This document shows, piece after piece, positions 13,717 to 53,136 of a stretch of 64,000 nucleotides of DNA (its first letter is position 1; the number at the start of each line of letters is the position of its first letter). The notes beneath the pieces were generated by a model. That model ran no database searches. It saw only the letters and a program-made list of their open reading frames with translations, and was not told the DNA's origin. The stretch is from Candidatus Poribacteria bacterium (GTDB lineage Bacteria; Poribacteria; WGA-4E; WGA-3G), in NCBI GenBank assembly GCA_964291315.2, contig OZ219750.1, positions 416,001-480,000 of the forward strand, written 5' to 3'. Both the position numbers and the translations under genes were made by a program.

Positions 13717-13878
13717 TTTTTCTGCTCAGTTTTCAATTCTTTCCGATCTTCGAAGAGTTGACACTCTCAGAATTATAAGAGTTAAAAGCCTTAATGATAA
13801 TGTGAGTTTGATAAATACTTGGCCAATTTTTGTCCAAAGAGAGTATTGTGGTGCAATGAAGCTATCAAATGAGTTTGT

Positions 13879-15880
13879 TCATAGCGGTTTGCTGTAAAAC
13901 ACCCTATTCAACGTCTTATCTGCCTCACTGACCTGAAATGTTTCGTCTTCTATTTCAGAGAGATGCACATACAACTGGTTCTTATCCAATAACTCCGCTA
14001 ACAGCCGCTTCTGTTGCTCAACGTCCTTGATAGCGCTAAAGTGTGCTTCGGCCCCCTCCGGGGCATCAGGGGTGATGTACCAATTGAGAGCGGAGTCTTC
14101 TGCCATATCGCGCCAGATGTCTAGCAGCTCTGCAGAAGTGGTTGCGAACTGGATCCGCTCCATGAAAACTTGGTTGTAAGGCATTAGCTCACAGGATATG
14201 AAATTCTCGCCGAGGAGTTTCTCTTTTTCAATGACTTTCCGGAGTCGTTCTTTGCAAACGGCTATGTGCTTTTCCAGCTGCTCTACCAGTATAAACTGCC
14301 GATTGCCGCTATCGTGTTTGTTCAGTTCTAAGACCGCATGTCCTGTAGTGCCTGAACCCGCAAAGAAGTCAAGCACAATGTCGTCTTCATTTGTTGTGAG
14401 TTTCAATATATCTGAAACAGTATATAGAGATTTGGGATAACTTACTTCAACTCGTCTACCGAGAAGCTTTTCTAATAAAAGGGTTCCATGGGAGGTTGCG
14501 TTGTACTTTGGAGCTACCCAGTGCGTCGTGATAATTTGCTGTTCCCTAAATTTCCTATAGATTACTATTTTCTTTTTTTCGCGTTTTATAACGACCTCAT
14601 TATCTTCAAAACGTTTCAGAAAGGTTTCTGGTTTTGTTACCCAAGTCATCTCCCGCCCGGTGTTTGTTACTGGAAAGATTTCTTCATAACCTTCAGCTTT
14701 CTCCAATGAAACGGTGCTGAGGTCATTGCTGACATAGATTGGATACCAATATGCAGGTTTATCTTCTCTTGTACATCCGCGACTTCCACCTTGAACCATA
14801 ATGTAGTTTTTTAAGTAATAATTCCCCTTCTCATCTTTCAAATTGAATTTTTTCTTCTTCTCTTCATCGATCACTACATTTTTTATGTTGATTCCGGTAG
14901 TCCTTGTATAAATTAACATAAACTCATTACTCGCTGAGAAGCCTTTGTCCATATTACGACCTCTTGCTTGATGGACCACTGAAACTACCGCTAACTTGTT
15001 CTTTCTTCCAAAAACTTCATCCGCTAGTACTCCCAAATAAAAAAGTTCATGATGATCAATAGCAATAGCAATGAATCCATCAGGGGTCAGCAATTCTCTT
15101 GCAACCTCTAACCTATTTTTCATAAACGTCAGCCACGTTGAGTGATTAAAAGCGTTGTTGTAGGTAAAGGTCTCCGATGAACCACCCGTATTATACGGCG
15201 GGTCTATGTAAATGAGTTTGACCCGCCCGCGAAATTGCTCTTTAAGGGTGTGCAGGACAATCAGGTTGTTGCCTTTGATGACAAGGTTCTCACGGATAAC
15301 ACCGGCATCATCTCGCTTCAGTTTGAGAGTTCCGTTTTCTATGTGCTTATCACAGATTACCCCCCCCGCTCTTATCAACCTCTCCTCCCATCGCCCTAAC
15401 ACCATGACGCTCCCAACACGTCAGAACCTTCGCATCAAACATACGATCTATCTCATCCGGCGCCAGAACCTCATTGAAGAATATCTCTTCACGTCTCTCC
15501 TCTTCATGTATCTGACCGCCTTCCAATATACAATCCTTATACGGCCAGACCAAAGCGACTTCCCCCCGCTCACGCAGATATTTGCCATCAATATTCAAAC
15601 CTATTCTATTACGGAACTGGGTATAGGAATCGGCAAAGAAGTTCTTATCCGTGATATAATCAACGAAGGTGTTGTTATCGAAGATCCAACGTCCTGCTAT
15701 CTCTTTGAAGAACTTCACCGCTATTTCTTCTTCTGTGGAGAGCAGGCTGATCAGCTCGGGGTCGAGTTTCCAAGCCCGTTCTCTGACGCTTGCACGCTGG
15801 AGTGCTCCGGTAGCATCAACAAAGTTAGAGTTGGTTTCAAGAAGTCTCATCAGTTTTTGGTCAAAACGTTTCTTTGACAT
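13879..15880 (-). CDS. mod: Type III R-M Mod subunit (N6-adenine DNA methyltransferase, beta class), frameshifted at a G8 tract; allele A
   Basis: ENLVIKGNNL, IYIDPPYNTG, YPKS, VLDFFAGSGTT; 176 aa and 508 aa ORFs overlap at C8 (15360-15367); deleting one G fuses them into about 666 aa. Confidence 0.9.
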
Positions 15881-16011
15881 ATAGATACATCCTTTTTGTC
15901 TTCCTGTGAGCTAATATGAGTTGATAAATACTTGGTCAATTTTTGTATAAAGCGAGTCTTCTGGTGTGATGAGGTCATCAAATGTTGTCTTGAAAGGGAG
16001 TTCTCTGATGG

Positions 16012-16040
16012 ATTATACCACTATTCTGTGAAATAGACAA
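16012..16040 (-). promoter_or_regulatory. Sigma70-type promoter of mod copy 1
   Basis: TTGTCT-17 nt-TATAAT with extended -10 TG on the minus strand. Confidence 0.7.
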
Positions 16041-16481
16041 CTTTTTTCTCCGTTATGAGCAAAGCTGTTTAGGTTTCACTATTCCTTCTATTTTTGATCC
16101 AAGCAGAGCTAGTGTGCCTTTCACGTACTGATCTATTGAAAACTGTAGAATCCAATACCTTCTCGGCGTTGATGATTTATCAGCTCTCGGAGAATAAACC
16201 GGTTCTGAACTTCTCCGAGCTTCAGCATGGACAGGATTTTACTAAGCATCTCTAAACTTTTTTCAAACTCATGTTATTATACCAAAGAGCACCGACTTCC
16301 GTTATTCCCGACCTGATCGATTAATTTGACTGACGAGCAGCGTAAAGTCGCTGAATTCGTGCAGAACAAGGCCCTAGCAGGTGATAAGGTGCTTTTTATC
16401 ATGCTTTCTGGTAGGCATAAACCGCCGTGGGAAGAGTGGCAAGCCAGCCTTCGTACGATGTGGCTTTGAAGTCAAGTTTAC

Positions 16482-17027
16482 TTAAAAATAGGCATGTATG
16501 CCTGATCCTACATAGACACCGGCAAGCCCCTTAGATTGAAATTCGGTTTTTTCCCTGCCGAATCCTTGACCTACTTCTACGTTCAAACCGAGGGGGATCC
16601 CACCAAGTGAAAACACAAGCTCGCCGCCGAAAGCAATTCCACCGCCTAACCTTGTGGTCAAACTGTTTTTATGTGTTTCATACTGTGAGATAGGATCTCC
16701 TGTTCTTTTTTCATAATGCCAAGCACCTTCTAACGTGAAGTAGAGTCGTGCTATGTTCCATTTGCTTTGATGTTCAAATATGGCATACGAAATGCCAGCT
16801 CCTAACATGTGATCGTTGTTCTGGTCCTTGAGAATAAAACGGCCAACGGTTTGAAGGTATACGGGTGCGAGGCCGGTATAGCGAAAACTAATTCCACCAA
16901 AGGCAGGAGTTGCTCCCTGGATGCCGATCCCGAAACTTTTGGTGAAATCAGCTGCTTGTACCTGAGTCGCAAAACTAAGGGGTATTCCTATGAAAATGCA
17001 TGTTAGGCAAAAAATTGTACTTTTCAC
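16482..17027 (-). CDS. Secreted outer-membrane beta-barrel-like hypothetical protein
   Basis: Signal peptide, Gly/aromatic alternating strands, C-terminal ..GIHAYF. Confidence 0.6.
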   Translation of the reverse strand: MKSTIFCLTCIFIGIPLSFATQVQAADFTKSFGIGIQGATPAFGGISFRYTGLAPVYLQTVGRFILKDQNNDHMLGAGISYAIFEHQSKWNIARLYFTLEGAWHYEKRTGDPISQYETHKNSLTTRLGGGIAFGGELVFSLGGIPLGLNVEVGQGFGREKTEFQSKGLAGVYVGSGIHAYF

Positions 17028-17051
17028 TGTTTTTTTCCCTTTTTTTAATGA

Positions 17052-17138
17052 CTATCGGTTGTCGGTTAGCAGTAAAGAAAGATGTTTGAAATCCCCACAG
17101 ATTTCCCTATTGACAACCGGCAACTGAGAGTTGACAGA
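17052..17138. repeat. Heptamer-periodic imperfect inverted repeat
   Basis: CTATCGG TTGTCGG TTAGCAG ... TTGACAA CCGGCAA CTGAGAG TTGACAG. Confidence 0.6.
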
Positions 17139-17146
17139 TATTTCAT

Positions 17147-18820
17147 TTATCGGGCAATCAACAACGTTACCCGATGCGATTTAGTCGCAGATGGATGGAA
17201 CATGAGAAGGTCCTGTTTCTCATCTTTGTTAAGGTCGGCCAGCCATATATTTCGTTCGTCAAAAGGCGTGGCGACTGCTACTTTTTGCGGTTTTTGGGTG
17301 AATAGTTTGGAATCTGGAATGCCCATAAAAACGTGTATTTTTTTCGGTTCATGTTGAATTAGCAGATCGAGGCGTTTGTCACCGTTCACATCGGCAATCA
17401 GCACAGCCGAAAAAGCGGTTCTTCCACCTGTTGCGCCAGATGGATATGATTTGAATCTGTGAGTTGTATTTGAGTTATGAGGGTAAGTGTTGTTTTCCAT
17501 GCGGTAGAACTCTATATCCAACGACACGGAACCTGTCAGAAGAGAACCGATGATCATACCGATGGCCTTGAGGATATGAGGCTTGATAGTGGCAAACATC
17601 ATATCGATTTTTACATCGCCGTTAAAATCGTGTTGCTCCATCCCGAATGGGATACCGTCTGAGTAGAGTGCGGTATTGGCATCTAGCGAGAACGTCGTGT
17701 CTCCATCGGATGTTGGTGCCCCGAAGTATACCTCATAGGTAGAATGCATGTGCCACAGATTCCCACCCTCCAGCGAAAAGACCCCGAGGTCGGTAACACC
17801 GTCCGCGTTCATATCCTTTATGGCGTGTAGCACCCTCCCTGTTAGAGCTCCGGCCGGTTGATGATCTCTACGTCGCCTGCGGACTCCATGAGGAGCAGCG
17901 AGTGCAGCGAGTTCATCGGACTCGAAAACCACATCGGTCGTGAAAGTTGTGGTGTCTGCGGAAAATAGCCCATGTTCGTTTTGGTGATGGACGACAAAGT
18001 GGTCTTCATTCCAAAAGACTAGGTCATTGCGCCCGTCTCGGTTGTAGTCTGTCTCATGAATACGACTCTGATTCCACGGATTGTAGCGGGATACATCGGT
18101 TTCATAGGTGCTATCTACCGTGGGTGGAGGGCCGAGTTTCACGGGTTTGGCAAATACACCGTCGGCCATCTGGATGAACACCCAAAATCCGTCGGAGTCG
18201 GGTACCACAAAGTCATCACGAGCATCGCCGTTCACATCGCGGGAGATATTTACATGAGGGATCTTGTCGTCGGGTGGTAAAGTCAGGGAAGGAACGCTTA
18301 CCAGCATGTGTGCTGTCTCCGCTTTGAGGTCAAGCCAGTTCAGGCGACTATGCTGGTATGTGATTAAGCGGTCGCGTCCAGCGATATTTGCGACATCGAC
18401 AAAGAGTACTTCGGTAGGCAATATTGTGTCTAGCCTCAGCCTCCAAGCGTTGTTATCGAATCCATAGATATGTAGCTGGCGGTTGTTGTTTTCGTCAATG
18501 CTCGCTACGGCGAGTTCAGCGCGATCGCCGCCAAGTAGAAATCCCGTTAAAACGGTTTGGTGTTTTCTTGTACCAATAGCGACTTCGTGCTGCTCGAAAG
18601 TGAATTCGTCACTTGTAGATACCAGCGGCTCAACCTTTTCGCCGATCAGACCTGAACACCCCGTTAGAAACAAACTGAAAACCCATATAGAGAACAGCTT
18701 CCATTCGAAGTGCTTCGTGGACTCGGTTACCAAGTTCGGTTTTGCCCAAAGGAACCTTTTATGCAATAGGTTTCGCCTTTTCACTTTTCTTTTCCTTTCG
18801 TTTTTTTTGGATATTAACAT
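17147..18820 (-). CDS. FG-GAP/VCBS repeat protein, probable lipoprotein
   Basis: Repeated DxNxDG motifs (DVNGDARDD, DYNRDGRND, DMNADGVTD, DVNGDKRLD); LFLTGC lipobox; start uncertain. Confidence 0.8.
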   Translation of the reverse strand: MLISKKNERKRKVKRRNLLHKRFLWAKPNLVTESTKHFEWKLFSIWVFSLFLTGCSGLIGEKVEPLVSTSDEFTFEQHEVAIGTRKHQTVLTGFLLGGDRAELAVASIDENNNRQLHIYGFDNNAWRLRLDTILPTEVLFVDVANIAGRDRLITYQHSRLNWLDLKAETAHMLVSVPSLTLPPDDKIPHVNISRDVNGDARDDFVVPDSDGFWVFIQMADGVFAKPVKLGPPPTVDSTYETDVSRYNPWNQSRIHETDYNRDGRNDLVFWNEDHFVVHHQNEHGLFSADTTTFTTDVVFESDELAALAAPHGVRRRRRDHQPAGALTGRVLHAIKDMNADGVTDLGVFSLEGGNLWHMHSTYEVYFGAPTSDGDTTFSLDANTALYSDGIPFGMEQHDFNGDVKIDMMFATIKPHILKAIGMIIGSLLTGSVSLDIEFYRMENNTYPHNSNTTHRFKSYPSGATGGRTAFSAVLIADVNGDKRLDLLIQHEPKKIHVFMGIPDSKLFTQKPQKVAVATPFDERNIWLADLNKDEKQDLLMFHPSATKSHRVTLLIAR

Positions 18821-19387: not shown

Positions 19388-19651
19388 TTATCTGTTTTTG
19401 TTTTTGTCAAGTTTATTTTCAAAGGCGGGCGAAATCATGCCTTCTGAGAAATCAAATGTCTCAACTGTATCAGCGATTTGTGAAAGGAAGCGCTTATTCT
19501 TCCCGGGGCCACAGCTAACTTCAAGGATGGTTGGACAATATAGATGAGGGAGGTTTTTCTCGGTGACAATCTGATCAAGGTTCTGTGTGCGGTTCCCATC
19601 TATGTCGTAAGTCGTTGATCGACTGTCGTATACCTTTTGGAGGTTATTCAT
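19388..19651 (-). pseudogene. Class I SAM-dependent methyltransferase fragment
   Basis: ILEVSCGPGKN..FDFSEGMI motif I region, truncated at 87 aa. Confidence 0.6.
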
Positions 19652-41488: not shown

Positions 41489-42727
41489 CTAATCGACGGT
41501 AAACTGAATTGTATCGAACCGCTGTGCCACCTTTGCAACCTGTGGTTTAAGTTTTTCAGGGTTACCTCCCGAAAGGGCGGTAACGATACACGCTGCGATG
41601 TCCGGGGCATCCTCGGGGGTCATTCCCCATCGGGTGACCTCTTGAACGCCGATACGTAACCCTGACTTTCCAACTTCTGGTGAGATCTGAGTTGTGTCTG
41701 TAATAATATGACATGCTTCCAAGTGGGTTGCGAGTGTCTCGCTGTCGCCATATTTATCTACGATCAGGATCAAAGTATGAGATTCCGTGAAGTCCAGATC
41801 GGCACTGAGTATCGTAACATCTCGTTCTGCTAATGCTCGCCCGAGTGCTTTAGCGTTGGTAACAATTGCGTCTGCTTGTGCCTCACCGCATTCCATCCAC
41901 TCTATAAACGTTCCCGCTAATGCTGGGAGCCGGTTCAGGTGGTGGTTGCTCATTAACAGAGGGTAGAGAGCTTTTGCCACCTGTTCAGCAATAGAGGCAT
42001 TATTTGTTAGGATCATTCCTCCTTGGGGGCCCGCGAGTGTTTTGTGGGTGCTGGAGATGATGACATCCGCTCCCTCATCGAACGGTGCCTGAAACCGGTT
42101 ACCCGCGATGAGTCCAATAACATGTGAGGCATCATAGATGAGATAGGAATCTGGATGTGCTTTTCTCATTGCTTGCTTCAGTTCTCGTACGGGTTGTGGG
42201 AAAAGGAAGACACCGGAGCCGACGTTAACAATCTTGGGTTTGTGTTCGGCAATTAGGGCGATCGTTCCGTCGAGGTCGATGTTTGAACGTCGTTCGTTCC
42301 ACGGAATGGGAATTGATCGTAGTTCCACTTTGAGTTTTGAGACCAGTAGTTTTTCAGCATAGCGGTGTCCGTTGTGGACTTCCAGTACTGTGTCCCCTGG
42401 TTTGGCTAATGCGAACATTGTTCCAATCCCGGCAATGTTTCCTGATAGGGGACGGAAGTCGACATATGCTGCGCCAAAAACCTCTTTTGCTAAGTTTTGG
42501 GTGTATCCTTCTATCTCGGCGATGTAGCGGTTGCCTTTGTAATTGCGTTTGTAAATATCGGTGCCAGAGTAATTCCCGTACCGCCGCGCCAACCGTTCGT
42601 CGAAAAGTTCTTCTACTAACGGGGAGGGGGTGTTCTCCGAAGCGATGAGATTCAGACAGGTGTTCCGGTATGCTTGATGCTTGTCAAGAAGTGAAGTGAG
42701 TTTTTGGATCTTTGCGTTATGTGTCAT
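41489..42727 (-). CDS. Serine hydroxymethyltransferase-like PLP-dependent enzyme (divergent)
   Basis: LNLIASEN, RPLSGNIA, YDASH..GLIAG, STHKTLAGPQGG, GLRIG. Confidence 0.85.
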   Translation of the reverse strand: MTHNAKIQKLTSLLDKHQAYRNTCLNLIASENTPSPLVEELFDERLARRYGNYSGTDIYKRNYKGNRYIAEIEGYTQNLAKEVFGAAYVDFRPLSGNIAGIGTMFALAKPGDTVLEVHNGHRYAEKLLVSKLKVELRSIPIPWNERRSNIDLDGTIALIAEHKPKIVNVGSGVFLFPQPVRELKQAMRKAHPDSYLIYDASHVIGLIAGNRFQAPFDEGADVIISSTHKTLAGPQGGMILTNNASIAEQVAKALYPLLMSNHHLNRLPALAGTFIEWMECGEAQADAIVTNAKALGRALAERDVTILSADLDFTESHTLILIVDKYGDSETLATHLEACHIITDTTQISPEVGKSGLRIGVQEVTRWGMTPEDAPDIAACIVTALSGGNPEKLKPQVAKVAQRFDTIQFTVD

Positions 42728-43051: not shown

Positions 43052-43100
43052 AAAAATATGAACGACAATTGAATGGCTCTGGATTTTCTATTAAAAAAAC

Positions 43101-43129
43101 TTGACATGAGGTGCGTTTTAAGATATACT
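43101..43129 (+). promoter_or_regulatory. Near-consensus sigma70 promoter
   Basis: TTGACA-17 nt-TATACT with an A-tract upstream. Confidence 0.7.
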
Positions 43130-43760
43130 TAAAATAATATATTGTAGAAGCTGCAGCATGAAATAGTCCGAAAGCGAATTTGTAACCTATGCGACATATG
43201 AAAGCTTTAGACACAGGTTCCAGAATTAGCACGTCAGATCGGCTTAGCCCCCTCTTGGGTATTCAGTGCCTATTATATCGTCTAATTTCTGCCTTTAGTT
43301 GGATTTTTAGCGATTACCCCCCCCCTTACCTTTACACATAGTAAGTATTTTATCCCCTTTATCACAAGACATACCCGCGCGCCGCGGCACTACCCACTTT
43401 GCGCCTGCTCGCCAGCTGACCCAACAGCACAAGATCGCACACCGGCCACAGAGCATCCGGCAGCCGAAGATAGGCAGGAGCAAAGCCGATCCTATAGCAA
43501 AAGAGACAGCCGCTCTATTCTTTTCATATGTTTTATGCTGGCGTTCCGTTTTCACGCACTTTAGGGACACTTGGTGCCGCCATTCAAAATACGCAAGGAC
43601 AAGGAGGACTGAAATTTGGAGGCTGCCCCTGTTACCTCTTCCTATGGAGAGCTGGAGGGTTCTTCACATAAAGTTTGTTTCGTAAGCAGAGAGAATGGAT
43701 CTGTCATCCGTGATTCCATTCTTATTTGATTTATGTTTAATATATGAATAACAGAGGAGG

Positions 43761-46646
43761 ATGAGACTGATGTTAATGTTATGGAATAAAATGAGACTAT
43801 TTGTGGTGTTGGGCCTGGTGTGTTTCTTCTCAACATCCCGGGCTTCCGCTCTTCAGCAGGATAACGCATGGCAATCGAAGAAAGGTAGTTTTTATGTTTT
43901 CACAGCCGGAAGTGAATCCTTAATACCTACACTCGCTGACAACGGCATCGTGGACACGGTAAAAGGGGGACCGATAACTTGGGGTAGAGCTTCTGGCCTT
44001 ACTTATTTTCCGGACACCTGGTCGGAACTGCAGGAGCTATTCCGCGGAGGCGGCGGGCTTGCCGTTGCAGTGAGGATTCCGGCTACAAGCGACACGGGCC
44101 AGTTCACGTTTGCTAAGCATAAAAGTTGGGCTGCTACAAAGGCAGAGGCGGACAAGTTCGAGGTTACCGAGGAGACAAAAGCCTTGGCGAAGACGTTCAA
44201 GCAGGCAATTGTTTTCAGCGAGGTCATGTGGGGTCGGGATTTCGCTGCGAGAACTGATGGTCCCGGCGAGTTTGGGGCCCAATGGGTTGAATTTTACGTC
44301 AACAAACTTTTGAAAAGCGACGATGAGGTGGTATTCAGATCATATAGTAATGCTACCGAGATGCCTGCTCCGGGTGAGATAGTATCAGTAACTACGGGCG
44401 GCGGTTCTAATTTTTATCGCTATCATTATGTCTTTTTGGATCGTATATCAACGATCGATCGTTGGGGTAGGAATTGGTTCCCGGATGCGCCGGGTAAAGA
44501 TGGTGATAGCGACGGCAACACAAATGCCGGCCTGCCTCCGACGCCTGTGGTCTCTATGTATCGGGATATCAAACTTGACAGCACAGGGAAGGCGTATGCG
44601 GTCAAAGATGGTAACCTGGATGGACTCGGTGATGGCAGCGAACCCAGCGCCTGGAAGGAGTCCGTCGGCCGCGTGAACATGGCGGGGCACTTCATCGGTT
44701 CCCCGGGCAGCGTTCACGTGCTTCATCCTGGCGGTCCCCATGTAACAAGGTTTGATAAGGCGCCTAAGGATGAAGATATCACGGCTACCGGCATCATCAT
44801 CAATGAGGTGTACAACGACCCGTCAAGTGCGAACTTGGATTGGATAGAGTTGTTCTATAATACCGATGACGCGGCAGCTGCATCTATAAGCATAGAGAAC
44901 TATAAGTTGAGCTTGGTGATGGGCAAGATGAAGTCTGATGGTAGCGGGTATAACGAGTCTGGGGATGCCAACTTCACGGAGACGAGCCTTGCGGTGCTGC
45001 CGAAATACAAGATGCGGCCTGGGGAGTATCTGGTGGTCTATAACCGGGAGCCTGGGAAGAGCGTTAAGCTCGCTGGGGGTGTGAACGTTAGCAACCTGTT
45101 GGACAGAACGGACATCAACATGGGTGCGACGCACAAGTATGCGGTTGCGAAGGATCTGAGTCTGCCTGCTACGGGCAAGTTCCTGATCCTGTTGCGCACG
45201 CGGAATAGTGCGGATGACGTTGGCAAGCCGACGAACATCAAAGACTACGCTGGCAACGGTTTCTTCAAGCGCATGGAAGATGGAAAGTTCAACACGTACC
45301 TCTGGCCGTTCGTGGGTTGGACGAAGCCGGGAGATGTGGATGATAACGACTTCGGTGGTATGAACAGCTTCTCTTCTCGGAGCATGTCGTTCGGTCGCGG
45401 TGTCCACTTGAACGCGAAGGGGATGTATTGGGCGAAGTCTCGTGCGAATCGTGTCCACAAAGACGACTGGCAGTCGTTTGGTTTCATGGGTGCTGGCTAC
45501 GATCGCGGCAAAGATAAAACGATTGACAAGGCGAGTTCCCCTGGCACGCCGGGGTATCCGAACATGGTAGTGGGCATGATCGCTGATGACAAAGACACCG
45601 CATCGACTGAAGACGACTATGCGTTTGATGGAACAGTGACGATCAGCGAGATCATGTATGATGCGGGACCGCGCTGGGACTTGGTGCAGTGGATAGAGCT
45701 CTACAATAGTTCTATGACGGAGACGCTAAACCTTGAAGGGTGGGAGTTTGAGATCCGCAACGCCGACACAAACGTAGATGCGTATGTGGATGCGTCTTTC
45801 ACGTTTGCTGCGGGGACGTATCTGCCGCCGAATCAGACGTTGCTGCTGGTGTCGAAGAACGGTGTGAACGATGTGCCGGAGAACTACGTATACAATCTGC
45901 AGCAGAAGCATCGTAGCGATCTCGGGTTGACGGCGAACGGTCGCCGGTTGCTGAGTGCGGAGGGTTTCCGTCTGGAGCTGCGTGCGAAGATCAGCGAAGG
46001 CGGTCAGTCCCGGTTGCGGGTGATGGACACGGCTGGCAACGTTGAGATAGTGGAGGGTCTGCGCAAGCGTGCGTGGGAACTGCCGAAGCGTGGGGATGTG
46101 CGGATGTCTATTGTGCGCAAGTCTGGAGGCATCTTCAATAACATGACAGAGGGTTCTGGTCCGCATGCTGCGGATGACGGTCTGATGAAAACCTCTTGGC
46201 GGAAGGGTTCCTCGCTGACGTACTACGGACATCGTGACGATATCGGCACGCCGGGTCATCGTGCTGGGGGACCGCTGCCCGTGTCGCTCTCGAGTTTCCG
46301 GCCTGTTCGCGATGCCTCGACGGGCCACGTTGAGATTACGTGGGTAACGCAGTCAGAGCTGAACAATGCGGGGTTCAATATCCTACGCAGTGAGAGCAAG
46401 ACCGGTGAGTTTGCGGTTATCAACGCCGAGGGTCTGATTGCTGGCCACGGCACGACGTCTGAGAGGCATGTGTATCGCTACACAGATACGACTGCGAAGC
46501 CGAGTGTGGTGTATTATTACCAGATAGAAGATGTCTCTATGGATGGGGTGCGCACGACGTTACGGACGACGCATCTGCGTGGGGATGTCTCTGCGAATGG
46601 TAAGCTCACGACGCGTTGGGGAGAGCTGAAATCGTCTGATAAATAA
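43761..46646 (+). CDS. Secreted lamin-tail-domain (LTD) repeat protein
   Basis: Signal peptide; three modules (IVFSEVMW..QWVEFY..GSPG; IIINEVY..DWIELFY..GTPG; VTISEIMY..QWIELYN..GTPG); PLPVSLSSF Ig-like domain; terminal GKLTTRWGELK; exact start among several Met codons uncertain. Confidence 0.85.
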   Translation: MRLMLMLWNKMRLFVVLGLVCFFSTSRASALQQDNAWQSKKGSFYVFTAGSESLIPTLADNGIVDTVKGGPITWGRASGLTYFPDTWSELQELFRGGGGLAVAVRIPATSDTGQFTFAKHKSWAATKAEADKFEVTEETKALAKTFKQAIVFSEVMWGRDFAARTDGPGEFGAQWVEFYVNKLLKSDDEVVFRSYSNATEMPAPGEIVSVTTGGGSNFYRYHYVFLDRISTIDRWGRNWFPDAPGKDGDSDGNTNAGLPPTPVVSMYRDIKLDSTGKAYAVKDGNLDGLGDGSEPSAWKESVGRVNMAGHFIGSPGSVHVLHPGGPHVTRFDKAPKDEDITATGIIINEVYNDPSSANLDWIELFYNTDDAAAASISIENYKLSLVMGKMKSDGSGYNESGDANFTETSLAVLPKYKMRPGEYLVVYNREPGKSVKLAGGVNVSNLLDRTDINMGATHKYAVAKDLSLPATGKFLILLRTRNSADDVGKPTNIKDYAGNGFFKRMEDGKFNTYLWPFVGWTKPGDVDDNDFGGMNSFSSRSMSFGRGVHLNAKGMYWAKSRANRVHKDDWQSFGFMGAGYDRGKDKTIDKASSPGTPGYPNMVVGMIADDKDTASTEDDYAFDGTVTISEIMYDAGPRWDLVQWIELYNSSMTETLNLEGWEFEIRNADTNVDAYVDASFTFAAGTYLPPNQTLLLVSKNGVNDVPENYVYNLQQKHRSDLGLTANGRRLLSAEGFRLELRAKISEGGQSRLRVMDTAGNVEIVEGLRKRAWELPKRGDVRMSIVRKSGGIFNNMTEGSGPHAADDGLMKTSWRKGSSLTYYGHRDDIGTPGHRAGGPLPVSLSSFRPVRDASTGHVEITWVTQSELNNAGFNILRSESKTGEFAVINAEGLIAGHGTTSERHVYRYTDTTAKPSVVYYYQIEDVSMDGVRTTLRTTHLRGDVSANGKLTTRWGELKSSDK

Positions 46647-46890: not shown

Positions 46891-48243
46891 ATGCCGAAAC
46901 CGACAGATATCCGCATTCTTAATGTTGGTTATGATTTTGAAGAACATAAATACCGCACCCCGCTCAAGTTCGGAGGAGTACCGACGGATCGCTGTGTTCT
47001 GTTTAACGTACGTATGCGAGTTCAGACACGTGCTGGGAAAGAAGCAGAAGGTAAAGGTTCAATGCCGCTTGGCAATGTTTGGGCGTTTCCGCCGCGCTAT
47101 GCCCCTTTTGACCAGAGTCTCACAGCGATGAAGAAACTTGCTGAATTAGCGGTTAGGGCAACACAGGATTGTACGTTGTGTGCGCACCCGCTTGAACTCT
47201 CCGAAGTGCTTGAACCCGAATTTCTACGAATCGCCGACGCTTTGTCCAACACTATGCAGCTTGCGTCACCAATACCCAAGCTCTGTACTGTTGTTACGAC
47301 GAGTCCTATTGACGCAGCCATTCACGATGGGTTTGGGAAAGCAAACGGTGTTAATAGTTATAACGGATTAGGCGAAGATTTTATTGAGGCAGATCTGTCT
47401 CACTTTTTGAATGAACACTTCGCGGGAAAATATCTGGACCGGTACACGTCCCGCCACCCCAAGATAAGTATGCCGCTTTACCATCTCGTCGGTGCCCTCG
47501 ATCCACTCACTGATGCGGATATTGCAGAACGTCTCGATGACGGTTTACCGGAAACCCTTCCGGAATGGATCGTTGCTGATGGTTTGACGCACTTGAAAAT
47601 CAAACTCAACGGCGATGACCTGGCTTGGGACGTGGCGCGCGTCCTTGCAATTGATAAAATTGCCGCAGAAACGCAGGCAAAACGTGGCATTGACGTGTGG
47701 CGCTATTCGGTTGATTTTAATGAAACCTGCCAAGACGTAGAATATCTGTTGGCATTCCTCAGCCAGATCCAGGAGGCAGAGCGTGGAGTTTTTCAACGTC
47801 TTGCCTACATCGAGCAACCCACAGATCGGAATCTGAAGGGGCATCCCGAAAATAAGATGCACAAAGCCGCCGAGATAAAACCGGTGGTCATTGACGAATC
47901 ACTGACCGACTTTGAGACTTTTCTGCTCGCGCGCGAGCAAGGATATTCGGGGGTTGCGCTCAAAGCATGTAAGGGACAATCTCAGGCGTTGTTAATGGGT
48001 GCAGCAGCTGCAGAATACGGTATGTTTCTTGCGGTTCAGGACCTAACATGTCCGGGGGCTTCCTTCTTGCATTCAGCGGGACTTGCTGCCCGCATTCCCG
48101 GTGTAACGGCTATTGAAGGCAACTCACGTCAATTCTGTCCAAGTGCTAATGACAGTTGGATCGATAAATTTCCATCAATTTTTAACATCACTGACGGTAC
48201 TGTGGGAACGTATGTACTGACGGCCCCCGGACTTGGACATTGA
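46891..48243 (+). CDS. Mandelate racemase/muconate lactonizing enzyme (enolase superfamily) protein
   Basis: IDAAIHD, HLKIKL, VDFNE, YIEQP, VVIDES, ALKACK. Confidence 0.85.
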   Translation: MPKPTDIRILNVGYDFEEHKYRTPLKFGGVPTDRCVLFNVRMRVQTRAGKEAEGKGSMPLGNVWAFPPRYAPFDQSLTAMKKLAELAVRATQDCTLCAHPLELSEVLEPEFLRIADALSNTMQLASPIPKLCTVVTTSPIDAAIHDGFGKANGVNSYNGLGEDFIEADLSHFLNEHFAGKYLDRYTSRHPKISMPLYHLVGALDPLTDADIAERLDDGLPETLPEWIVADGLTHLKIKLNGDDLAWDVARVLAIDKIAAETQAKRGIDVWRYSVDFNETCQDVEYLLAFLSQIQEAERGVFQRLAYIEQPTDRNLKGHPENKMHKAAEIKPVVIDESLTDFETFLLAREQGYSGVALKACKGQSQALLMGAAAAEYGMFLAVQDLTCPGASFLHSAGLAARIPGVTAIEGNSRQFCPSANDSWIDKFPSIFNITDGTVGTYVLTAPGLGH

Positions 48244-49010
48244 TCGCTAAAGTAGGACTGAAATATGCCAATTGTCTCGCACAGAGCATTTGAGTGGTTT
48301 GATATTAAGAGTGCCGGCGGATTTTTATGCTTCCGGCTTCCGGGAGAAATAACGTTAAACGCGTTCCGCAATTCGAGCTTCTGATTTCAAGATTATACCA
48401 AAAGGGTTCTGTTTGAACAAAGAAAACACGGAATTATTTACCAAACTTGCGTAAAAATGTTAGACTAGTATAACATTGCAACCTCGGCGCTGAGTGTTTG
48501 TAACCCTGTGTGAGGCGTGGATTCCGAGCCCTTTTTAAGTGTTGATTTTTGCTGTGAAAAAAGGATTTAGCCAAAAGTGTAAAATTTTATTGTTCGCATT
48601 ATTAATTCAAGTTTGCGTTATATATGATACCATATATAATGTCGGGATGCAATTTTTTTATCAATGGATAGATGGCCTCTGCTGTGTCCGCAATTTTAGA
48701 TTTTCGGTTTTAGAGACCCTAACCTACTATATCGTTTGGGCGTTTTTTTGCGTTTCCGTGTACTGTTTCCGAACTGTCCGCACGATGAACGTCATGCTTG
48801 AGGTGTTAAAAATTAAACAGGTAAAAAGGGCGTGATAGCTATTAGGAAGAGCACCGACTCTTAACGCAATGTGTTTATCAGTAATGTCTGCCCCGGAATA
48901 TAAAACGCGGAGTTCCTTGGAAATTTCGTCCTGATGTTTGCCCTTCCCTCGTGTTGAGAAACGCTGTGTATTATGGGGTTGTTATTGTGTATCCATATAA
49001 ATGGGTCAGC

Positions 49011-50669
49011 CTATTTTCCTGGCTCCACAATTGTTATGTATGTATTGATTGGCGCGTCGTCCAATTCCTGTGTTGTGCCGCTTTGCCAAACAACAGTAAT
49101 CTTCTGAACGTGTTGATGCATTCCTAAGCCGAATAGCAGGCGTGTGTCGCTTCCGGAGGCGTAGCTTGAACCGCTCTTTACTTCCCGAATCTGTGTCACG
49201 CCGCCGGTTACAAGTTGGACCTTTGCCCCAATACCGTCCCTATTGCTACGGGTGCCGATTAGTTTAATGCCGACCCAATTCTTCATGTTTCCGCCATCAT
49301 TTCGAAGCAAAACGGCGCGCTGGTTGGAATTCATGATAACAATATCGGTATCCCCGTCATTGTCGTAGTCTGCCATAGCGGCGGCTCTTCCGACAAGCGT
49401 TTCTTGAAAGTAAACGCCAGCGGTTTCTGAAACGTCCGTGTAACGCCCGTTTCCGTTGTTCCGAAACATCTGGTCGCGCTGCGCGTAAGTTTCGTGATCG
49501 GTCAAAGTCGCGATGACATCTTGTGGATGTCCGTTTGCACAAAACAGGTCGAGATGTCCGTCATTATCGTAATCTAGAAAGAGTGGACTGAAACCAACGA
49601 AAGAGAGTGTTGGCTGCTCTAGGCCGCTATCGGCAGTTGCATCAACGAAGAAGAGACCTTCTTGATTTTTATAAAGGGTTGCCTTCTCTGAATTCGCGAT
49701 AATGAAATCAGACCATCCATCCCCGTTATAATCCCCGGTGTCCACGCCCATAGAGCCTTCGGCGACCCCCTTTTCATCGTAACCGATCCCAATAAAGAGG
49801 CTCTCATCAGTGAAGGTGCCGTCGCTGTTGTTATGATACATGAAATTCCGGTTGGTATCGTTGGCGACGTAAACGTCAGAAAATCCGTCATGATCGTAGT
49901 CACAGGCAATGGCTGCCATCCCTCTGCCTTCACTCGGGTTTGTGACCCCGGCTGCTTCGGCGATGTTCGTAAAGGTGCCGTCCCCGTTGTTCCGATAAAG
50001 CACATCAGGTGTTCCCTCATAGCTGCGCGGGTGTCCGTATCCGACAATACCTCTATAGGTTGTTATTGGCATCGACAGTTCGTAAACAAGATAGTTAACA
50101 ACAAAAATATCCAAATCGCCATCGATGTCAAAATCGAGGTAGACAGCTGCAATACCCCAGAGGGGGTTATCAATCCCCGCGGCTTTGGTGATGTCGGTGA
50201 ATGTACCGTCCCCGTTATTTCGGTAGAGCGTATCGTTTCCGAAGTTTGCGATGTAGAGATCTGCATCGCCGTCATTATCAATATCTCCTGCAGCAGCTGC
50301 CATCCCGTAGCTTGTATCTCCTACGCCTGCCTGTTCGGTGACATCTGTCCAACGTCCATTCCCTTCGTTGCGATAGAGGGCATTTCCGGGGTTTCTCTGT
50401 TGTCGGTTTGGTGCCTCTTGTGGAATAGATCCGCTGTTAACAAAATAAAGATCGACATCACTATCTGCATCATAATCAAAAAAGACGACCCCGGATCCCA
50501 TCGTTTCAATAATGTGTTTATGCTCAGTTTTACCGTTGTTGTGCCTGAATTGGATGCCGGCTGCTTCGGTAACATCCGTGAAAGTAGGCAGTTCTGCGGC
50601 AGCATTGCCGATAGTGAGTAGGAAGAATATCTGTACGCTTAATTTAAGTTGCCGCTTATTCATGGACAT
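49011..50669 (-). CDS. CRTAC1 family protein (FG-GAP repeats plus ASPIC/UnbV)
   Basis: FTDVTEAAGI, many DYDxDGxxD and LYRNNGDGTF repeats, SNRDGIGAKV..SGSSYAS..LLFGLG. Confidence 0.92.
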   Translation of the reverse strand: MSMNKRQLKLSVQIFFLLTIGNAAAELPTFTDVTEAAGIQFRHNNGKTEHKHIIETMGSGVVFFDYDADSDVDLYFVNSGSIPQEAPNRQQRNPGNALYRNEGNGRWTDVTEQAGVGDTSYGMAAAAGDIDNDGDADLYIANFGNDTLYRNNGDGTFTDITKAAGIDNPLWGIAAVYLDFDIDGDLDIFVVNYLVYELSMPITTYRGIVGYGHPRSYEGTPDVLYRNNGDGTFTNIAEAAGVTNPSEGRGMAAIACDYDHDGFSDVYVANDTNRNFMYHNNSDGTFTDESLFIGIGYDEKGVAEGSMGVDTGDYNGDGWSDFIIANSEKATLYKNQEGLFFVDATADSGLEQPTLSFVGFSPLFLDYDNDGHLDLFCANGHPQDVIATLTDHETYAQRDQMFRNNGNGRYTDVSETAGVYFQETLVGRAAAMADYDNDGDTDIVIMNSNQRAVLLRNDGGNMKNWVGIKLIGTRSNRDGIGAKVQLVTGGVTQIREVKSGSSYASGSDTRLLFGLGMHQHVQKITVVWQSGTTQELDDAPINTYITIVEPGK

Positions 50670-50887
50670 AACACCTCGCTGGAGTGCAGCTTGCCCGATC
50701 GTTTTCTATGAACATGGCACACCCTTGAGGTGTGAAGAGATACTTTTCCGTGAAATCCGTAAAATCCGAGAGCGCAAGTTTACAGGGCTTATTAGGTAGC
50801 AAAACTTAATGTGAGTTTGGTAAATACTTGGCTAATTTTTGTCCAAAGAGAGTATTGTGGTGCAATGAAGCTATCAAATGAGTTTGT

Positions 50888-52874
50888 TCATAGCGGTTTG
50901 CTGTAAAACACCCTATTCAACGTCTTATCTGCCTCACTGACCTGAAATGTTTCGTCTTCTATTTCAGAGAGATGCACATACAACTGGTTCTTATCCAATA
51001 ACTCCGCTAACAGACGCTTCTGTTGCTCAACGTCCTTGATAGCGCTAAAGTGTGCTTCGGCCCCCTCCGGGGCATCAGGGGTGATGTACCAATTGAGAGC
51101 GGAGTCTTCTGCCATATCGCGCCAGATGTCTAGCAGCTCTGCAGAAGTGGTTGCGAACTGGATCCGCTCCATGAAAACTTGGTTGTAAGGCATTAGCTCA
51201 CAGGATATGAAATTCTCGCCGAGGAGTTTCTCTTTTTCAATGACTTTCCGGAGTCGTTCTTTGCAAACGGCTATGTGCTTTTCCAGCTGCTCTACCAGTA
51301 TAAACTGCCGATTGCCGCTATCGTGTTTGTTCAGTTCTAAGACCGCATGTCCTGTAGTGCCTGAACCCGCAAAGAAGTCAAGCACAATATCTCCTGGATC
51401 TGTTGTAATTTTTATGATGTCTAAAACTGTATATAGGGACTTCGGGTACGAAACGCTTTTTCTTCCAATAATTTTTTCCAAAAGTTTGGTGCCATGGCTT
51501 ACCGCATTGTATTTCTTGGCAATCCAATGGGTTGTAAATACTTCAACTTCCCTAACCTTATAGAAAATTCTGATTTCGTCCTTCTGGTTTTTCTGCGCAA
51601 CGATTTCGTCACGTCTTACTTTTTTTAAAAAACTTTTGGGCTTTAGAAACCAGATTCTTTCAACACCGTTGTTAATTGGTAAAATCTTGTGATAATTTTT
51701 TTCTTCGATTAATGAAATATCGTCTAAATTAGAGCTGACATAGATAGGATAGAAGTTGTCTGGTTTGTTTCTTCGCAGTTCCTCGCCTCTAATAAACGAT
51801 CTGAGTTTATATTTTCCATTTTCATCTTCAAGATTAAAATTCGCTTTTTTCCCCTCTGAAATTAGAACTTTCCGGAAATTTGCAAGCGATCTATCTCTGG
51901 CATACACAAGCATAAATTCATTACTTGTCCCGAAAAACTTTTCCTGGCTTCTGCCTTCTGGTTTGTGTACAACAGTTATAACGCCTAATTTATTTTCTCT
52001 CCCAAATATCTCATCTACCAACGCTCCTAAATAAAAAAGTTCATGATGATCAATAGCAATAGCAATGAATCCATCAGGGGTCAGCAATTCTCTTGCAACC
52101 TCTAACCTATTTTTCATAAACGTCAGCCACGTTGAGTGATTAAAAGCGTTGTTGTAGGTAAAGGTCTCCGATGAACCACCCGTATTATACGGCGGGTCTA
52201 TGTAAATGAGTTTGACCCGCCCGCGAAATTGCTCTTTAAGGGTGTGCAGGACAATCAGGTTGTTGCCTTTGATGACAAGGTTCTCACGGATAACACCGGC
52301 ATCATCTCGCTTCAGTTTGAGAGTTCCGTTTTCTATGTGCTTATCACAGATTACCCCCCCCGCTCTTATCAACCTCTCCTCCCATCGCCCTAACACCATG
52401 ACGCTCCCAACACGTCAGAACCTTCGCATCAAACATACGATCTATCTCATCCGGCGCCAGAACCTCATTGAAGAATATCTCTTCACGTCTCTCCTCTTCA
52501 TGTATCTGACCGCCTTCCAATATACAATCCTTATACGGCCAGACCAAAGCGACTTCCCCCCGCTCACGCAGATATTTGCCATCAATATTCAAACCTATTC
52601 TATTACGGAACTGGGTATAGGAATCGGCAAAGAAGTTCTTATCCGTGATATAATCAACGAAGGTGTTGTTATCGAAGATCCAACGTCCTGCTATCTCTTT
52701 GAAGAACTTCACCGCTATTTCTTCTTCTGTGGAGAGCAGGCTGATCAGCTCGGGGTCGAGTTTCCAAGCCCGTTCTCTGACGCTTGCACGCTGGAGTGCT
52801 CCGGTAGCATCAACAAAGTTAGAGTTGGTTTCAAGAAGTCTCATCAGTTTTTGGTCAAAACGTTTCTTTGACAT
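50888..52874 (-). CDS. mod: Type III R-M Mod subunit, frameshifted at a G8 tract; allele B (different TRD)
   Basis: Same DPPY and FAGSG motifs; 176 aa and 503 aa ORFs overlap at C8 (52354-52361); fused product about 661 aa. Confidence 0.9.
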
Positions 52875-53005
52875 ATAGATACATCCTTTTTGTCTTCCTG
52901 TGAGCTAATATGAGTTGATAAATACTTGGTCAATTTTTGTATAAAGCGAGTCTTCTGGTGTGATGAGGTCATCAAATGTTGTCTTGAAAGGGAGTTCTCT
53001 GATGG

Positions 53006-53034
53006 ATTATACCACTATTCTGTGAAATAGACAA
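53006..53034 (-). promoter_or_regulatory. Sigma70-type promoter of mod copy 2
   Basis: TTGTCT-17 nt-TATAAT, identical to copy 1. Confidence 0.7.
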
Positions 53035-53136
53035 CTTTTTTCTCCGTTATGAGCAAAGCTGTTTAGGTTTCTGTATTTCTGTTCCTATTAATTCTAGATC
53101 ATCCTCTGACGTTGTTAGGGAGGTTTCTAACCTCGC

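What the first reader, a model, noticed from the sequence alone, without database searches (positions are those of the whole stretch)
13798..53071. Two dispersed copies of an orphan Type III Mod cassette with swapped target-recognition domains
Seen: 13798-16077 and 50807-53071 are direct repeats, almost identical including promoter and non-coding flanks, except for a sharply bounded central block (14380-15034, 655 bp, versus 51389-52028, 640 bp). That block lies between the DPPY and FxGxG motifs. No res gene adjoins either copy and no transposase or integrase flanks them. Established: in beta-class Type III Mod proteins this interval is the TRD, and TRD exchange by recombination at conserved flanks changes the methylated motif (Helicobacter, Haemophilus, Neisseria mod alleles). 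Inference: one chromosome holds two specificity alleles of a restriction-less methyltransferase on a portable, self-promoted cassette. This could be an intragenomic TRD library reshuffled by gene conversion, acting in epigenetic regulation or protection from restriction in a symbiont lineage where I know of no such description.
Basis: partly seen in the sequence, partly recalled or inferred. Interest (0 to 1): 0.88.

Follow-up and report, generated by a model that had tools for sequence, protein, structure and literature searches.

The report
Two switchable DNA methylase gene copies
Two copies of a DNA-marking enzyme gene in a sponge-symbiont genome differ only in the part that picks the target sequence, and both are knocked out of frame by a slippery run of eight G's, a familiar kind of on/off switch that here recurs in dozens of such genes.

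Summary
Window 13798-16077 and 50807-53071 are near-identical apart from a bounded block, 14380-15034 versus 51389-52028, between the DPPY and FxGxG motifs of a Type III Mod.

- Both genes lie on the minus strand and are split into a 176-aa and a 508/503-aa ORF by a G8 run. G7 or G10 would restore about 666 aa.
- They belong to a family of five close and two distant mod paralogs in this Candidatus Poribacteria genome. Three sit in tandem beside the only adjacent res, 100 kb away.
- The same G8/G9 module interrupts three other multi-copy DNA methyltransferase families. All 28 genes are out of frame.

Both halves of mod are under purifying selection (dN/dS 0.12-0.27). The tract is G7-G11 in congeners, and one G10 allele is in frame. 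Each TRD has a 76-86% match in another Poribacteria species.

Best reading: orphan alleles of a multi-allelic, poly-G phase-variable mod family, both OFF in this assembly. I found no sign of a mobile cassette. Dispersed and tandem mod alleles with swapped TRDs are already described in Mycoplasma, so this is a new member of a known kind. The motif shared across families (AGC-G8/9-TAATC...) is unexplained and is the most novel lead.

The parts
13798..16077 (-). Copy A: duplicated 2280-nt unit holding upstream region, split mod gene and 3' spacer
   Evidence: In one search the contig branch points of run X1 fall exactly at 13798 and 16077, and the loose ends map to the flanks of copy B.
50807..53071 (-). 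Copy B: the same unit, 2265 nt, with a different TRD
15350..15880 (-). Copy A upstream ORF, 176 aa: Type III Mod N-terminal domain (PF12564, E 5e-19). It ends 5 codons after the G run.
13879..15405 (-). Copy A downstream ORF, 508 aa, in the +1 frame: N6_N4_Mtase (PF01555, E 3e-34) with DPPY, TRD, FxGxG and a C-terminal domain
52344..52874 (-). Copy B upstream ORF, 176 aa, identical to that of copy A
50888..52399 (-). Copy B downstream ORF, 503 aa (PF01555, E 2e-37)
15360..15367 (-). G8 tract of copy A, inside the 25-mer AGC-G8-TAATCTGTGATAAG. G7 or G10 would join the two ORFs into about 666 aa.
52354..52361 (-). G8 tract of copy B, in the same 25-mer
14380..15034 (-). TRD block A, 655 nt. Its protein is 83% identical to the TRD at locus L038 of another Poribacteria MAG.
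51389..52028 (-). TRD block B, 640 nt. It is 76% identical to the TRD at L078 of another Poribacteria MAG and 48% to TRD A.
16012..16040 (-). Promoter-like site TTGTCT-17-TATAAT with TG extension, inside the unit. The copy B equivalent is at 53006-53034. Weak evidence.
   Evidence: 10 of 12 positions match, but there is no excess of such sites over shuffled sequence
13798..13871 (-). 74-nt 3' spacer repeat of copy A, 82% identical to 15912-15984 upstream of the same gene. In the tandem array this spacer occurs once between successive mod genes.
15912..15984 (-). 74-nt 5' spacer repeat of copy A
50807..50880 (-). 74-nt 3' spacer repeat of copy B
52906..52978 (-). 74-nt 5' spacer repeat of copy B

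Best explanation
The two loci are orphan paralogs (alleles) of one Type III mod gene in a Candidatus Poribacteria genome.

Origin (inferred). One period of a tandem mod array was copied to one site and then to a second. That array of three mod alleles plus the only adjacent res lies 100 kb upstream. The central TRD was replaced by homologous recombination within the conserved arms, drawing on old TRD alleles shared across species. The two enzymes should therefore methylate different motifs.

Switch. Each gene carries a G8 tract in the linker between the N-terminal domain and the methyltransferase core, and at G8 the gene is out of frame. The tract most likely works as a slipped-strand, phase-variable ON/OFF switch, with G7 or G10 as ON. 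In this assembly both copies are OFF.

Shown: the mosaic structure, the frameshift, purifying selection on both halves, tract-length variation between paralogs and species, and one in-frame allele.

Inferred: that switching occurs within the population, that the two TRDs read different motifs, and what the enzymes do when ON. They could supply alternative specificities to the distant Res in trans, or act as res-less epigenetic regulators.
For: Identity as Type III Mod:
- PF12564 plus PF01555.
- DPPY lies before FxGxG.
- Best solved relatives are Mbo45V, an H. pylori Mod and EcoP15I Mod.

Family:
- 5 close and 2 distant paralogs.
- The array sits next to an 883-aa PF04851 Res.

TRD exchange:
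- The five TRDs are 31-48% identical to one another.
- Each is 76-86% identical to a TRD in another Poribacteria species, equal to or above the identity of the 3' arm (62-79%).

Frameshift:
- G8 sits at the ORF junction in all 5 close copies; the distant pair carry G8 and G9.

Not dead genes:
- dN/dS is 0.12-0.27 for the N-ORF, the pre-TRD segment and the post-TRD segment between window and array copies, with dS 0.4-0.9.
- All 15 tract-bearing alleles keep long open halves.

Hypermutable tract:
- At the same linker site in congeners the run is G7, G8, G8, G9, G9, G10, G10 and G11.
- The G10 allele of G003:C378 is in frame, with a 664-aa open frame.
- 15 of 19 relatives' loci examined have no run and a linker about 17 aa shorter.
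- Contigs with one extra C at 15359 occur in 2 of 4 runs: X2 in 2 contigs (5180 of 125818 depth) and X3 in 6 contigs (8818 of 67018).

Not a homopolymer error:
- ORF breaks occur at 26 of 65 G/C runs of 8 or more.
- They occur at only 2 of 47 G/C7, 9 of 510 G/C6, 3 of 70 A/T runs of 9 or more, and 6 of 320 A/T8.
- The X1 contig 15225-15472 reproduces G8 with no difference.
- Fragmented assemblies, probably from short reads, show the same break (G003, G021, G063).
Against: - Only 1 of 15 tract-bearing mod alleles is in frame: 0 of 7 in this genome and 1 of 8 in relatives. All 28 tract-bearing methyltransferase genes of four families here are out of frame. Neutral switching would give about one third ON. 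The paralogs are not independent, though, and 1 of 8 among relatives is not significantly low.
- No G7 (ON) variant appeared in the contigs laid. Contigs drop rare variants, and the +1 variants in X2 and X3 could come from paralogs or related strains.
- No raw reads, RNA data or methylation data were available.
- The conserved flanks of the tract are not needed for simple slippage and remain unexplained.
- No Res adjoins either copy, so a defence role needs an untested partnership in trans.
Confidence: 0.6

Rival explanations
1. Programmed recoding. The G8/G9 tract with its conserved flanks is a transcriptional-slippage or ribosomal-frameshift site. A fixed out-of-frame genotype would then yield a small, constant share of full-length enzyme, and DNA-level switching would be secondary.
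For: - All 28 tract-bearing methyltransferase genes here are out of frame. Both G8 (+1 needed) and G9 (+2 needed) occur within one family.
- Both halves are under purifying selection.
- Tract lengths are narrowly 8-9 (45 and 18 runs, against 2 of G10 and none longer). This is about the length of an RNA-DNA hybrid (my recollection).
- The flanks are conserved: TAA follows 34 of 45 G8 and 11 of 18 G9 runs, against 47 of 3665 G5-G7 runs.
- In one family a perfect 7-bp hairpin abuts the run (GGTAATC ACA GATTACC).
Against: - An in-frame G10 allele exists, and tract length varies from 7 to 11 between genomes. That is what DNA slippage predicts.
- The module works in either orientation relative to the gene (C run in the coding strand of the N6_N4 family). 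This argues against a single ribosomal mechanism.
- ARAGORN finds a normal tRNA set with no four-base anticodon.
- G/C runs are poorer slippage templates for RNA polymerase than A/T runs (my recollection).
Confidence: 0.15
2. Decay. The copies are redundant duplicates inactivated by a one-base insertion at a mutation-prone run, on their way to loss in a shrinking symbiont genome.
For: - Both copies are out of frame and lack res.
- This genome is small for its genus: 4.4 Mb against 4.3-6.7 Mb.
- An earlier scan note on another Poribacteria genome described a poly-G methyltransferase in a decaying defence locus (e1-1115309; not checked here).
Against: - dN/dS is 0.12-0.27 on both sides of the break.
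- No second lesion occurs in any of the 7 paralogs or 8 relatives' alleles.
- The same single-site break in 28 genes of four families, each otherwise open, is not how random decay looks.
Confidence: 0.12
3. Artefact. Either the G8 call is a homopolymer consensus error, or two strain variants of one locus were assembled into two places.
For: - Four contigs suggest a long-read assembly, though the sequencing platform is on no record I saw.
- The arms are identical, so collapse or duplication is conceivable.
Against: - A/T runs of 8 or more show only background breaks: 9 of 390.
- An independent contig of run X1 gives G8.
- Fragmented assemblies of other species break at the same site.
- Both copies have their own unique flanks in the X1 and X2 contigs.
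- The depth of TRD block A (846.6) is close to that of its single-copy flanks (985-1123).
Confidence: 0.05
4. Mobile cassette. The 2.28-kb unit moves by its own or a borrowed recombinase.
For: Both copies have identical, sharp boundaries in unrelated housekeeping neighbourhoods. The unit is flanked by 74-nt direct repeats.
Against: - There are no terminal inverted repeats: the best match is 22 of 60 and the longest shared inverted word is 6 nt.
- There is no target-site duplication.
- None of the 17 neighbouring ORFs is a recombinase.
- The 74-nt repeat is the inter-mod spacer of the tandem array.
- There are only two copies with these boundaries in the genome.
Confidence: 0.05

Closest known systems
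Mycoplasma Type III mod allele sets: M. hyopneumoniae J ORF399P/ORF423P (separately located) and M. bovis PG45 M1/M2/M3.Mbo45ORF167P (tandem). Atack et al. 2018, PMC5909438, passages read.
   Same: Several alleles of one mod gene sit in one chromosome. They share conserved 5' and 3' ends and differ in the central TRD. A simple repeat lies at the same place in each copy, and both tandem and dispersed layouts occur. The best solved-structure match of the window protein is Mbo45V itself.
   Different: The repeat there is a GA dinucleotide repeat; here it is a G homopolymer. The phylum and lifestyle differ (sponge symbiont). Here the same tract module also occurs in three unrelated methyltransferase families.
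Phasevarion mod genes: modA (H. influenzae, Neisseria; 21 TRD alleles), modB and modH (Helicobacter pylori). The first two are as summarised in PMC5909438 (passages). For modH I saw only the abstract start of PMC5700931. That its tract is poly-G is my recollection.
   Same: An in-frame repeat tract gives ON/OFF switching. The arms are conserved and the TRD is exchangeable and horizontally shuffled. Res is often absent or inactive (my recollection).
   Different: Those are one allele per locus per strain, with alleles spread across strains. Here 5+2 alleles coexist in one genome. No regulon or switching has been shown here.
Poly-G/C contingency loci of Campylobacter jejuni (PhasomeIt paper PMC6321876, abstract start only)
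   Same: Dozens of G/C tracts of 8 or more per genome lie inside genes or at their 5' ends. They include R-M genes.
   Different: I know of no report there of a conserved flanking motif shared between unrelated genes. Here TAATC follows 36 of 65 tracts.
Earlier notes of this scan: e1-2633822 (tandem mod alleles sharing one Res, same genome) and e1-1115309 (G10-split methyltransferase in another Poribacteria genome)
   Same: The first describes the array that the window copies derive from. I re-found it and its Res. The second reports variable poly-G tracts in Poribacteria methyltransferases.
   Different: Neither listing mentions the dispersed orphan copies, the poly-G break in these mod genes or the cross-family motif.

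Membership tests
Type III R-M Mod subunit (beta-class N6-adenine methyltransferase) | N6_N4_Mtase catalytic domain | tested here: met
   PF01555, E 2.7e-34 (copy A) and 2.3e-37 (copy B), both above the cut-off
Type III R-M Mod subunit (beta-class N6-adenine methyltransferase) | Motif order DPPY (IV), then TRD, then FxGxG (I) | tested here: met
   IDPPYNTG lies upstream of FFAGSGTTG, with the variable block between them
Type III R-M Mod subunit (beta-class N6-adenine methyltransferase) | Type III-specific N-terminal domain | tested here: met
   PF12564, E 5.3e-19, in the 176-aa upstream ORF of both copies
Type III R-M Mod subunit (beta-class N6-adenine methyltransferase) | Sequence relationship to solved Type III Mods | tested here: met
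   Mbo45V 7dsu E 2e-41, Mod 6k0w E 1e-35, EcoP15I Mod 4zcf E 1e-30
Type III R-M Mod subunit (beta-class N6-adenine methyltransferase) | Adjacent cognate res gene | tested here: not met
   No PF04851 match in the window and none among 17 neighbouring ORFs. The feature is met only for the third gene of the array at C1:325998-328649. The window copies are therefore orphan Mods.
Type III R-M Mod subunit (beta-class N6-adenine methyltransferase) | One uninterrupted reading frame | tested here: not met
   G8 puts the catalytic part in the +1 frame
Phase-variable mod gene (phasevarion type) | Simple sequence repeat inside the coding sequence | tested here: met
   G8 at 15360-15367 and 52354-52361
Phase-variable mod gene (phasevarion type) | Repeat length differs between strains or genomes, with both in-frame and out-of-frame states | tested here: met
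   G7 to G11 across 15 alleles, one of them in frame (G10, 664 aa)
Phase-variable mod gene (phasevarion type) | Length heterogeneity within one population | tested here: inconclusive
   Only contigs could be laid. +1 variants appear in X2 and X3 but cannot be assigned to a locus or strain.
Phase-variable mod gene (phasevarion type) | Alleles defined by more than 90% identical 5' and 3' regions with a divergent TRD (criterion quoted in PMC5909438) | tested here: met
   A versus B: 5' arm 1047 of 1048, 3' arm 579 of 582 outside the junction zone. Against the array copies the arms are about 85-91% identical, which is borderline.
Phase-variable mod gene (phasevarion type) | ON/OFF switching changes methylation and gene expression | not testable with these tools
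   No raw reads with kinetics and no RNA run were listed
Transposable or integrative cassette | Terminal inverted repeats, target-site duplication or an associated recombinase | tested here: not met

The most novel reading that the evidence does not exclude
The long G tracts of this genome are not ordinary, independently evolved contingency repeats. They are instances of one dedicated switch motif, roughly AG(C)-G8/9-TAATC-NNN-GATAAG.

- It occurs 36 times here (as GGGGGGGGTAATC) against 0-3 times in each of 60 congeners.
- Its 25-nt core is base-for-base identical between unrelated methyltransferase families.
- It occurs in both orientations relative to the gene.
- It holds a library of at least 28 specificity alleles (four families, each with conserved arms and a variable TRD) OFF by default.

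On this reading the motif is either copied between genes by short-patch conversion, or it is recognised by a dedicated factor or recoding mechanism that decides which methyltransferases are expressed.
Probability: 0.3. Interest if true: 0.8.

Novelty: new member of a known kind. Interest (0 to 1): 0.5.

Why it matters
Phase-variable, multi-allelic mod genes are known almost only from host-adapted pathogens. Finding the full pattern in an uncultured sponge symbiont extends it to a mutualist in a phage-rich filter feeder. That pattern is tandem plus dispersed alleles, TRD alleles shared across species, and a hypermutable tract.

It also gives a concrete prediction. The methylome should be heterogeneous between cells and should track tract length read by read.

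The wider pattern suggests that specificity repertoires for defence or epigenetic control can be organised genome-wide. It comprises 28 methyltransferase genes of four families, each with variable TRDs and the same poly-G motif. The existing long-read data of such symbiont projects could test this without cultivation.

Tried and rejected
- Expression: no RNA holder was listed for the stretch.
- Reads: only contigs could be laid, so there is no per-read tract-length distribution. All 11 loose-end sequences mapped to paralogs already in the assembly, so no extra TRD allele was found.
- Empty-site test for insertion: the right flank of copy A (181-aa gene plus FG-GAP gene) is conserved in congeners. 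The left flank and mod are not beside it in the three genomes fetched, so there is no informative empty site.
- Scan of JGI metagenome contigs for the module: one hit, a chance look-alike (G6 plus CA) in an unrelated in-frame gene.
- Exact 25-mer in 40 relatives: none.
- Rfam on the whole window: no match.
- Frameshift-suppressor tRNA: ARAGORN shows a standard set, with Gly-CCC, Gly-GCC and Gly-UCC.
- Independent start of the downstream ORF: the ATG at 15405 is not conserved in the other tract-bearing orthologs, so I rejected this.
- Silent TRD-only cassettes: none by tblastn.
- Earlier scan notes by sequence: none.
- Literature: four searches found no paper linking Poribacteria or sponge symbionts with phase-variable methyltransferases. 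The supplements of Atack et al. 2018, which list the 662 repeat-bearing mod genes, were closed. A Poribacteria entry there cannot be excluded.
- Slips: one search scanned a 25-aa fragment by a coordinate mistake. One search failed on a search-term format, so I saw only the listing and abstract start of PMC9465063.
- Mod-Res complex prediction: not sent. The pair is too close to solved structures and exceeds the size limit.

Full report
**Observation**

A self-comparison of the window gives exactly two repeat pairs.
- 15030-16077 matches 52024-53071 at 99.9% over 1048 nt.
- 13798-14436 matches 50807-51446 at 96.9% over 640 nt.

Base by base, the 5' arm has a single mismatch, at 15034. The 3' arm has three differences in 13798-14379, followed by 18 differences packed into 14380-14436.

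The genes lie on the minus strand. The block falls between IDPPYNTG and FFAGSGTTG. It covers the stretch that lies between the catalytic motifs of the solved Type III Mods Mbo45V, an H. pylori Mod and EcoP15I Mod. These are the three best matches in the PDB.

**What the gene is**

Each copy is split into two ORFs.
- A 176-aa ORF carries the Type III N-terminal domain (PF12564, E 5e-19).
- A 508-aa (copy A) or 503-aa (copy B) ORF lies in the +1 frame and carries PF01555.

The junction is a run of eight G (C8 on the + strand at 15360-15367 and 52354-52361). One G fewer, or two more, would join the halves into about 666 aa. That is the size of uninterrupted orthologs in the genus, which have open frames of 645-680 aa.

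**Organism and family**

The nearest named records are Candidatus Poribacteria MAGs. The window is C1:416001-480000 of a 4.40-Mb, four-contig genome.

The genome holds five close mod paralogs and two distant ones.
- The two window copies.
- Three in tandem at C1:317912-326053.
- Two distant ones on C4, 64-65% identical in the N-terminal ORF.

The third array gene overlaps an 883-aa PF04851 Res. No other mod has a res beside it, and no PF04851 match lies in the window.

I scanned 17 ORFs around the two window copies with Pfam. They are RimK, a glycosyltransferase, dehydrogenases, an MFS transporter, FG-GAP/ASPIC proteins, RadC, SpoU, a TPP enzyme, FGE-sulfatase, TPR, RibD, RibBA and an enolase-like protein. 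Two have no match. None is a res, integrase or transposase.

**TRD mosaic**

An alignment of the five units shows conserved arms and a central block of 40-60% nucleotide identity in every pair.

In protein, the five TRDs are 31-48% identical to one another. Each has a counterpart at 76-86% in another Poribacteria species:

| TRD | Counterpart locus | Identity |
|---|---|---|
| A | L038 | 83% |
| B | L078 | 76% |
| array 1 | L040 / L019 | 85% |
| array 2 | L023 | 86% |
| array 3 | L087 | 82% |

The 3' arms of those same loci are only 62-79% identical. TRDs are therefore old alleles that move between backbones.

No TRD occurs twice in this genome and there are no TRD-only fragments. Intragenomic reshuffling is therefore not shown.

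**Origin of the dispersed copies**

Each unit ends in a 74-nt copy (82% identical) of its own upstream spacer. In the array that spacer occurs once between successive mod genes. Both window copies share the same two end points. They have no terminal inverted repeats and no target-site duplication.

The simplest history is as follows. One array period was copied out, with its 3' end in the next spacer. It was then duplicated to a second site, and the TRD was replaced.
- Between the window copies, dS is 0-0.014 upstream of the TRD and 0.088 in the last 185 codons, which include the junction zone.
- Between window and array copies, dS is 0.4-0.9.

So the pair is either young or kept alike by gene conversion. 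A search for an empty site in congeners was uninformative.

**Is the frameshift real?**

- ORF breaks coincide with 26 of 65 G/C runs of 8 or more.
- They coincide with only 2 of 47 G/C7, 9 of 510 G/C6, 3 of 70 A/T runs of 9 or more, and 6 of 320 A/T8. The assembly therefore has no general homopolymer problem.
- A contig of run X1 reproduces 15225-15472 without a difference.
- Both copies have their own flanks in the X1 and X2 contigs.
- The depth of TRD block A (846.6) is near that of its unique flanks (985-1123).
- Fragmented assemblies of other species break at the same place.

**Is the gene dead?**

Between window and array copies, dN/dS is:
- 0.14-0.17 for the N-terminal ORF,
- 0.14-0.22 for the pre-TRD part of the downstream ORF,
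- 0.12-0.20 for the post-TRD part.

Both sides of the break have therefore been translated in their own frames while they diverged. None of the 15 tract-bearing alleles I examined has a second lesion.

**The tract in relatives**

Of the 19 relatives' loci looked at, 15 have no run at the site. Those I translated have a linker about 17 aa shorter (...WKRHTANGEQDVTDIQRDENG...).

Eight alleles in five species carry a run at the same linker position. Their lengths are G7, G8, G8, G9, G9, G10, G10 and G11. Seven are out of frame. One, the G10 allele at G003:C378, is in frame with a 664-aa open frame. A tract whose length differs in nearly every genome, and that can be in frame, is what a slipped-strand switch looks like.

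In the laid contigs, one extra C at 15359 appears in X2 (2 contigs) and X3 (6 contigs) but not in X1 or X4. These contigs sum over paralogs and strains, so this is only weak evidence for heterogeneity within a population.

**A genome-wide pattern**

The 25-mer AGC-G8-TAATCTGTGATAAG around the tract also occurs in other multi-copy methyltransferase families.
- It is exact in six copies of an N6_N4 methyltransferase family. There it lies in the opposite orientation, with C8 in the coding strand.
- With one mismatch it occurs in eight copies of an Eco57I/MmeI/TaqI_C-type family.
- A related form, AGC/AGT-G8/9-TAATCACAGATTACC, interrupts seven copies of an MmeI/Eco57I-like family.

All 28 genes (7+6+8+7) are out of frame. 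I found one in-frame G8 in R-M genes here. It lies in a mod-like gene at C4:2872878, close to a PF04851 helicase match.

Congeners mostly carry uninterrupted orthologs of these families: 7 of 10 and 9 of 9 loci examined. Two of the three families show conserved arms with a strongly variable block in the part compared. The third shows a variable stretch in the upstream ORF.

The motif statistics are as follows.
- G/C runs number 510 (6), 47 (7), 45 (8), 18 (9) and 2 (10).
- TAA follows 34 of 45 G8 and 11 of 18 G9 runs, but only 47 of 3665 G5-G7 runs.
- TAATC follows 36 of 65 long runs, against 2 of 3665 short ones.
- GGGGGGGGTAATC occurs 36 times here and 0-3 times in each of 60 congeners. Its reversed control occurs 0 times here.

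**What the shared motif means is open**

In the sense orientation the motif puts a stop in each wrong frame within five codons (TAA, and TGA in TAATCTGTGA). This could be a selected property. It does not explain the reversed copies.

Comparison with orthologs shows that the flanks look native in both families.
- The mod lineage has Gn-TAAT-NNN-TGATAAG in several species.
- The N6_N4 family encodes L-S-Q-V/I-T-P at that spot in relatives. The tract there replaces native sequence with no change of length apart from the extra C.

The exact 25-nt identity could therefore be short-patch conversion between already similar sequences, or convergence on a functional motif. In species G063 the two families' tract flanks differ. 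The identity across families is thus specific to this lineage. I could not decide between these readings.

**Mechanism and odds**

- Most likely (0.6): the window copies are two OFF-state alleles of a phase-variable, multi-allelic Type III mod family. When ON they may lend new specificities to the distant Res, or they may act as res-less regulators.
- Recoding by slippage during transcription or translation: 0.15. It fits the near-universal OFF state and the conserved flanks.
- Decay: 0.12.
- Artefact: 0.05.
- Mobile cassette: 0.05.

**Comparison with what is known**

Atack et al. 2018 (PMC5909438, passages read) report the following.
- Alleles are defined by ends more than 90% identical with a variable TRD.
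- M. bovis has three tandem alleles of one mod.
- M. hyopneumoniae J has separately located alleles of one mod.

Here it is a new member, in a new phylum and with a homopolymer tract.

Four literature searches found nothing on phase-variable methyltransferases in Poribacteria or sponge symbionts. The supplements were closed. An earlier scan note reports a variable poly-G methyltransferase in another Poribacteria genome (e1-1115309).

Noticed in passing
window 43100-43560 (C9 at 43317-43325): A C9 run with the same flank (GATTA-C9, i.e. G9-TAATC on the other strand) lies in an intergenic stretch between a 412-aa ORF (41489-42727) and a 961-aa ORF that starts at 43761. The surrounding sequence belongs to a repeat family whose conceptual translations recur at several other G/C-run sites in the genome and do not look like coding sequence. 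Rfam has no match.
   Followed up: partly
G000 C4, e.g. 1126001-1131000 (L034), 2070001-2076000 (L035), 1636001-1642000 (L036): Three further multi-copy DNA methyltransferase families have 8, 6 and 7 copies: Eco57I/MmeI/TaqI_C type, N6_N4 type and MmeI/Eco57I-like. Each copy is split at a G8/G9 or C8 run. Two of the families show conserved arms with a strongly variable block, like the mod TRD.
   Followed up: partly
G000 C4:2872878 (minus strand): An in-frame G8 followed by TAA lies in a 1054-codon open frame that contains a mod-like methyltransferase match. It is close to a PF04851 helicase match. It is the only in-frame long G run I found in an R-M gene of this genome.
   Followed up: no
G000 C4:330232, 775135, 2769968: Three long genes (open frames of 643-1192 codons) have a C8 run about 25 codons upstream of a start that is followed by a signal-peptide-like sequence (MKRT...). 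The run therefore lies in the leader or promoter rather than in the coding part.
   Followed up: no
L033:6026-7486 (G000 C1:322026-323486, minus strand): A 486-aa ORF with no Pfam match lies on the opposite strand between the second and third mod genes of the tandem array.
   Followed up: no
L041, L037, L076 (loci from the search for related loci): TRD A has 67-71% protein identity to TRDs in MAGs labelled Sneathiellales, Pseudomonadota and Nomurabacteria. This hints that this TRD is shared across phyla.
   Followed up: no
whole genome G000 versus congeners: G000 is small for its genus (4.4 Mb against 4.3-6.7 Mb). It holds 36 copies of GGGGGGGGTAATC, while 60 congeners hold 0-3 each.
   Followed up: partly
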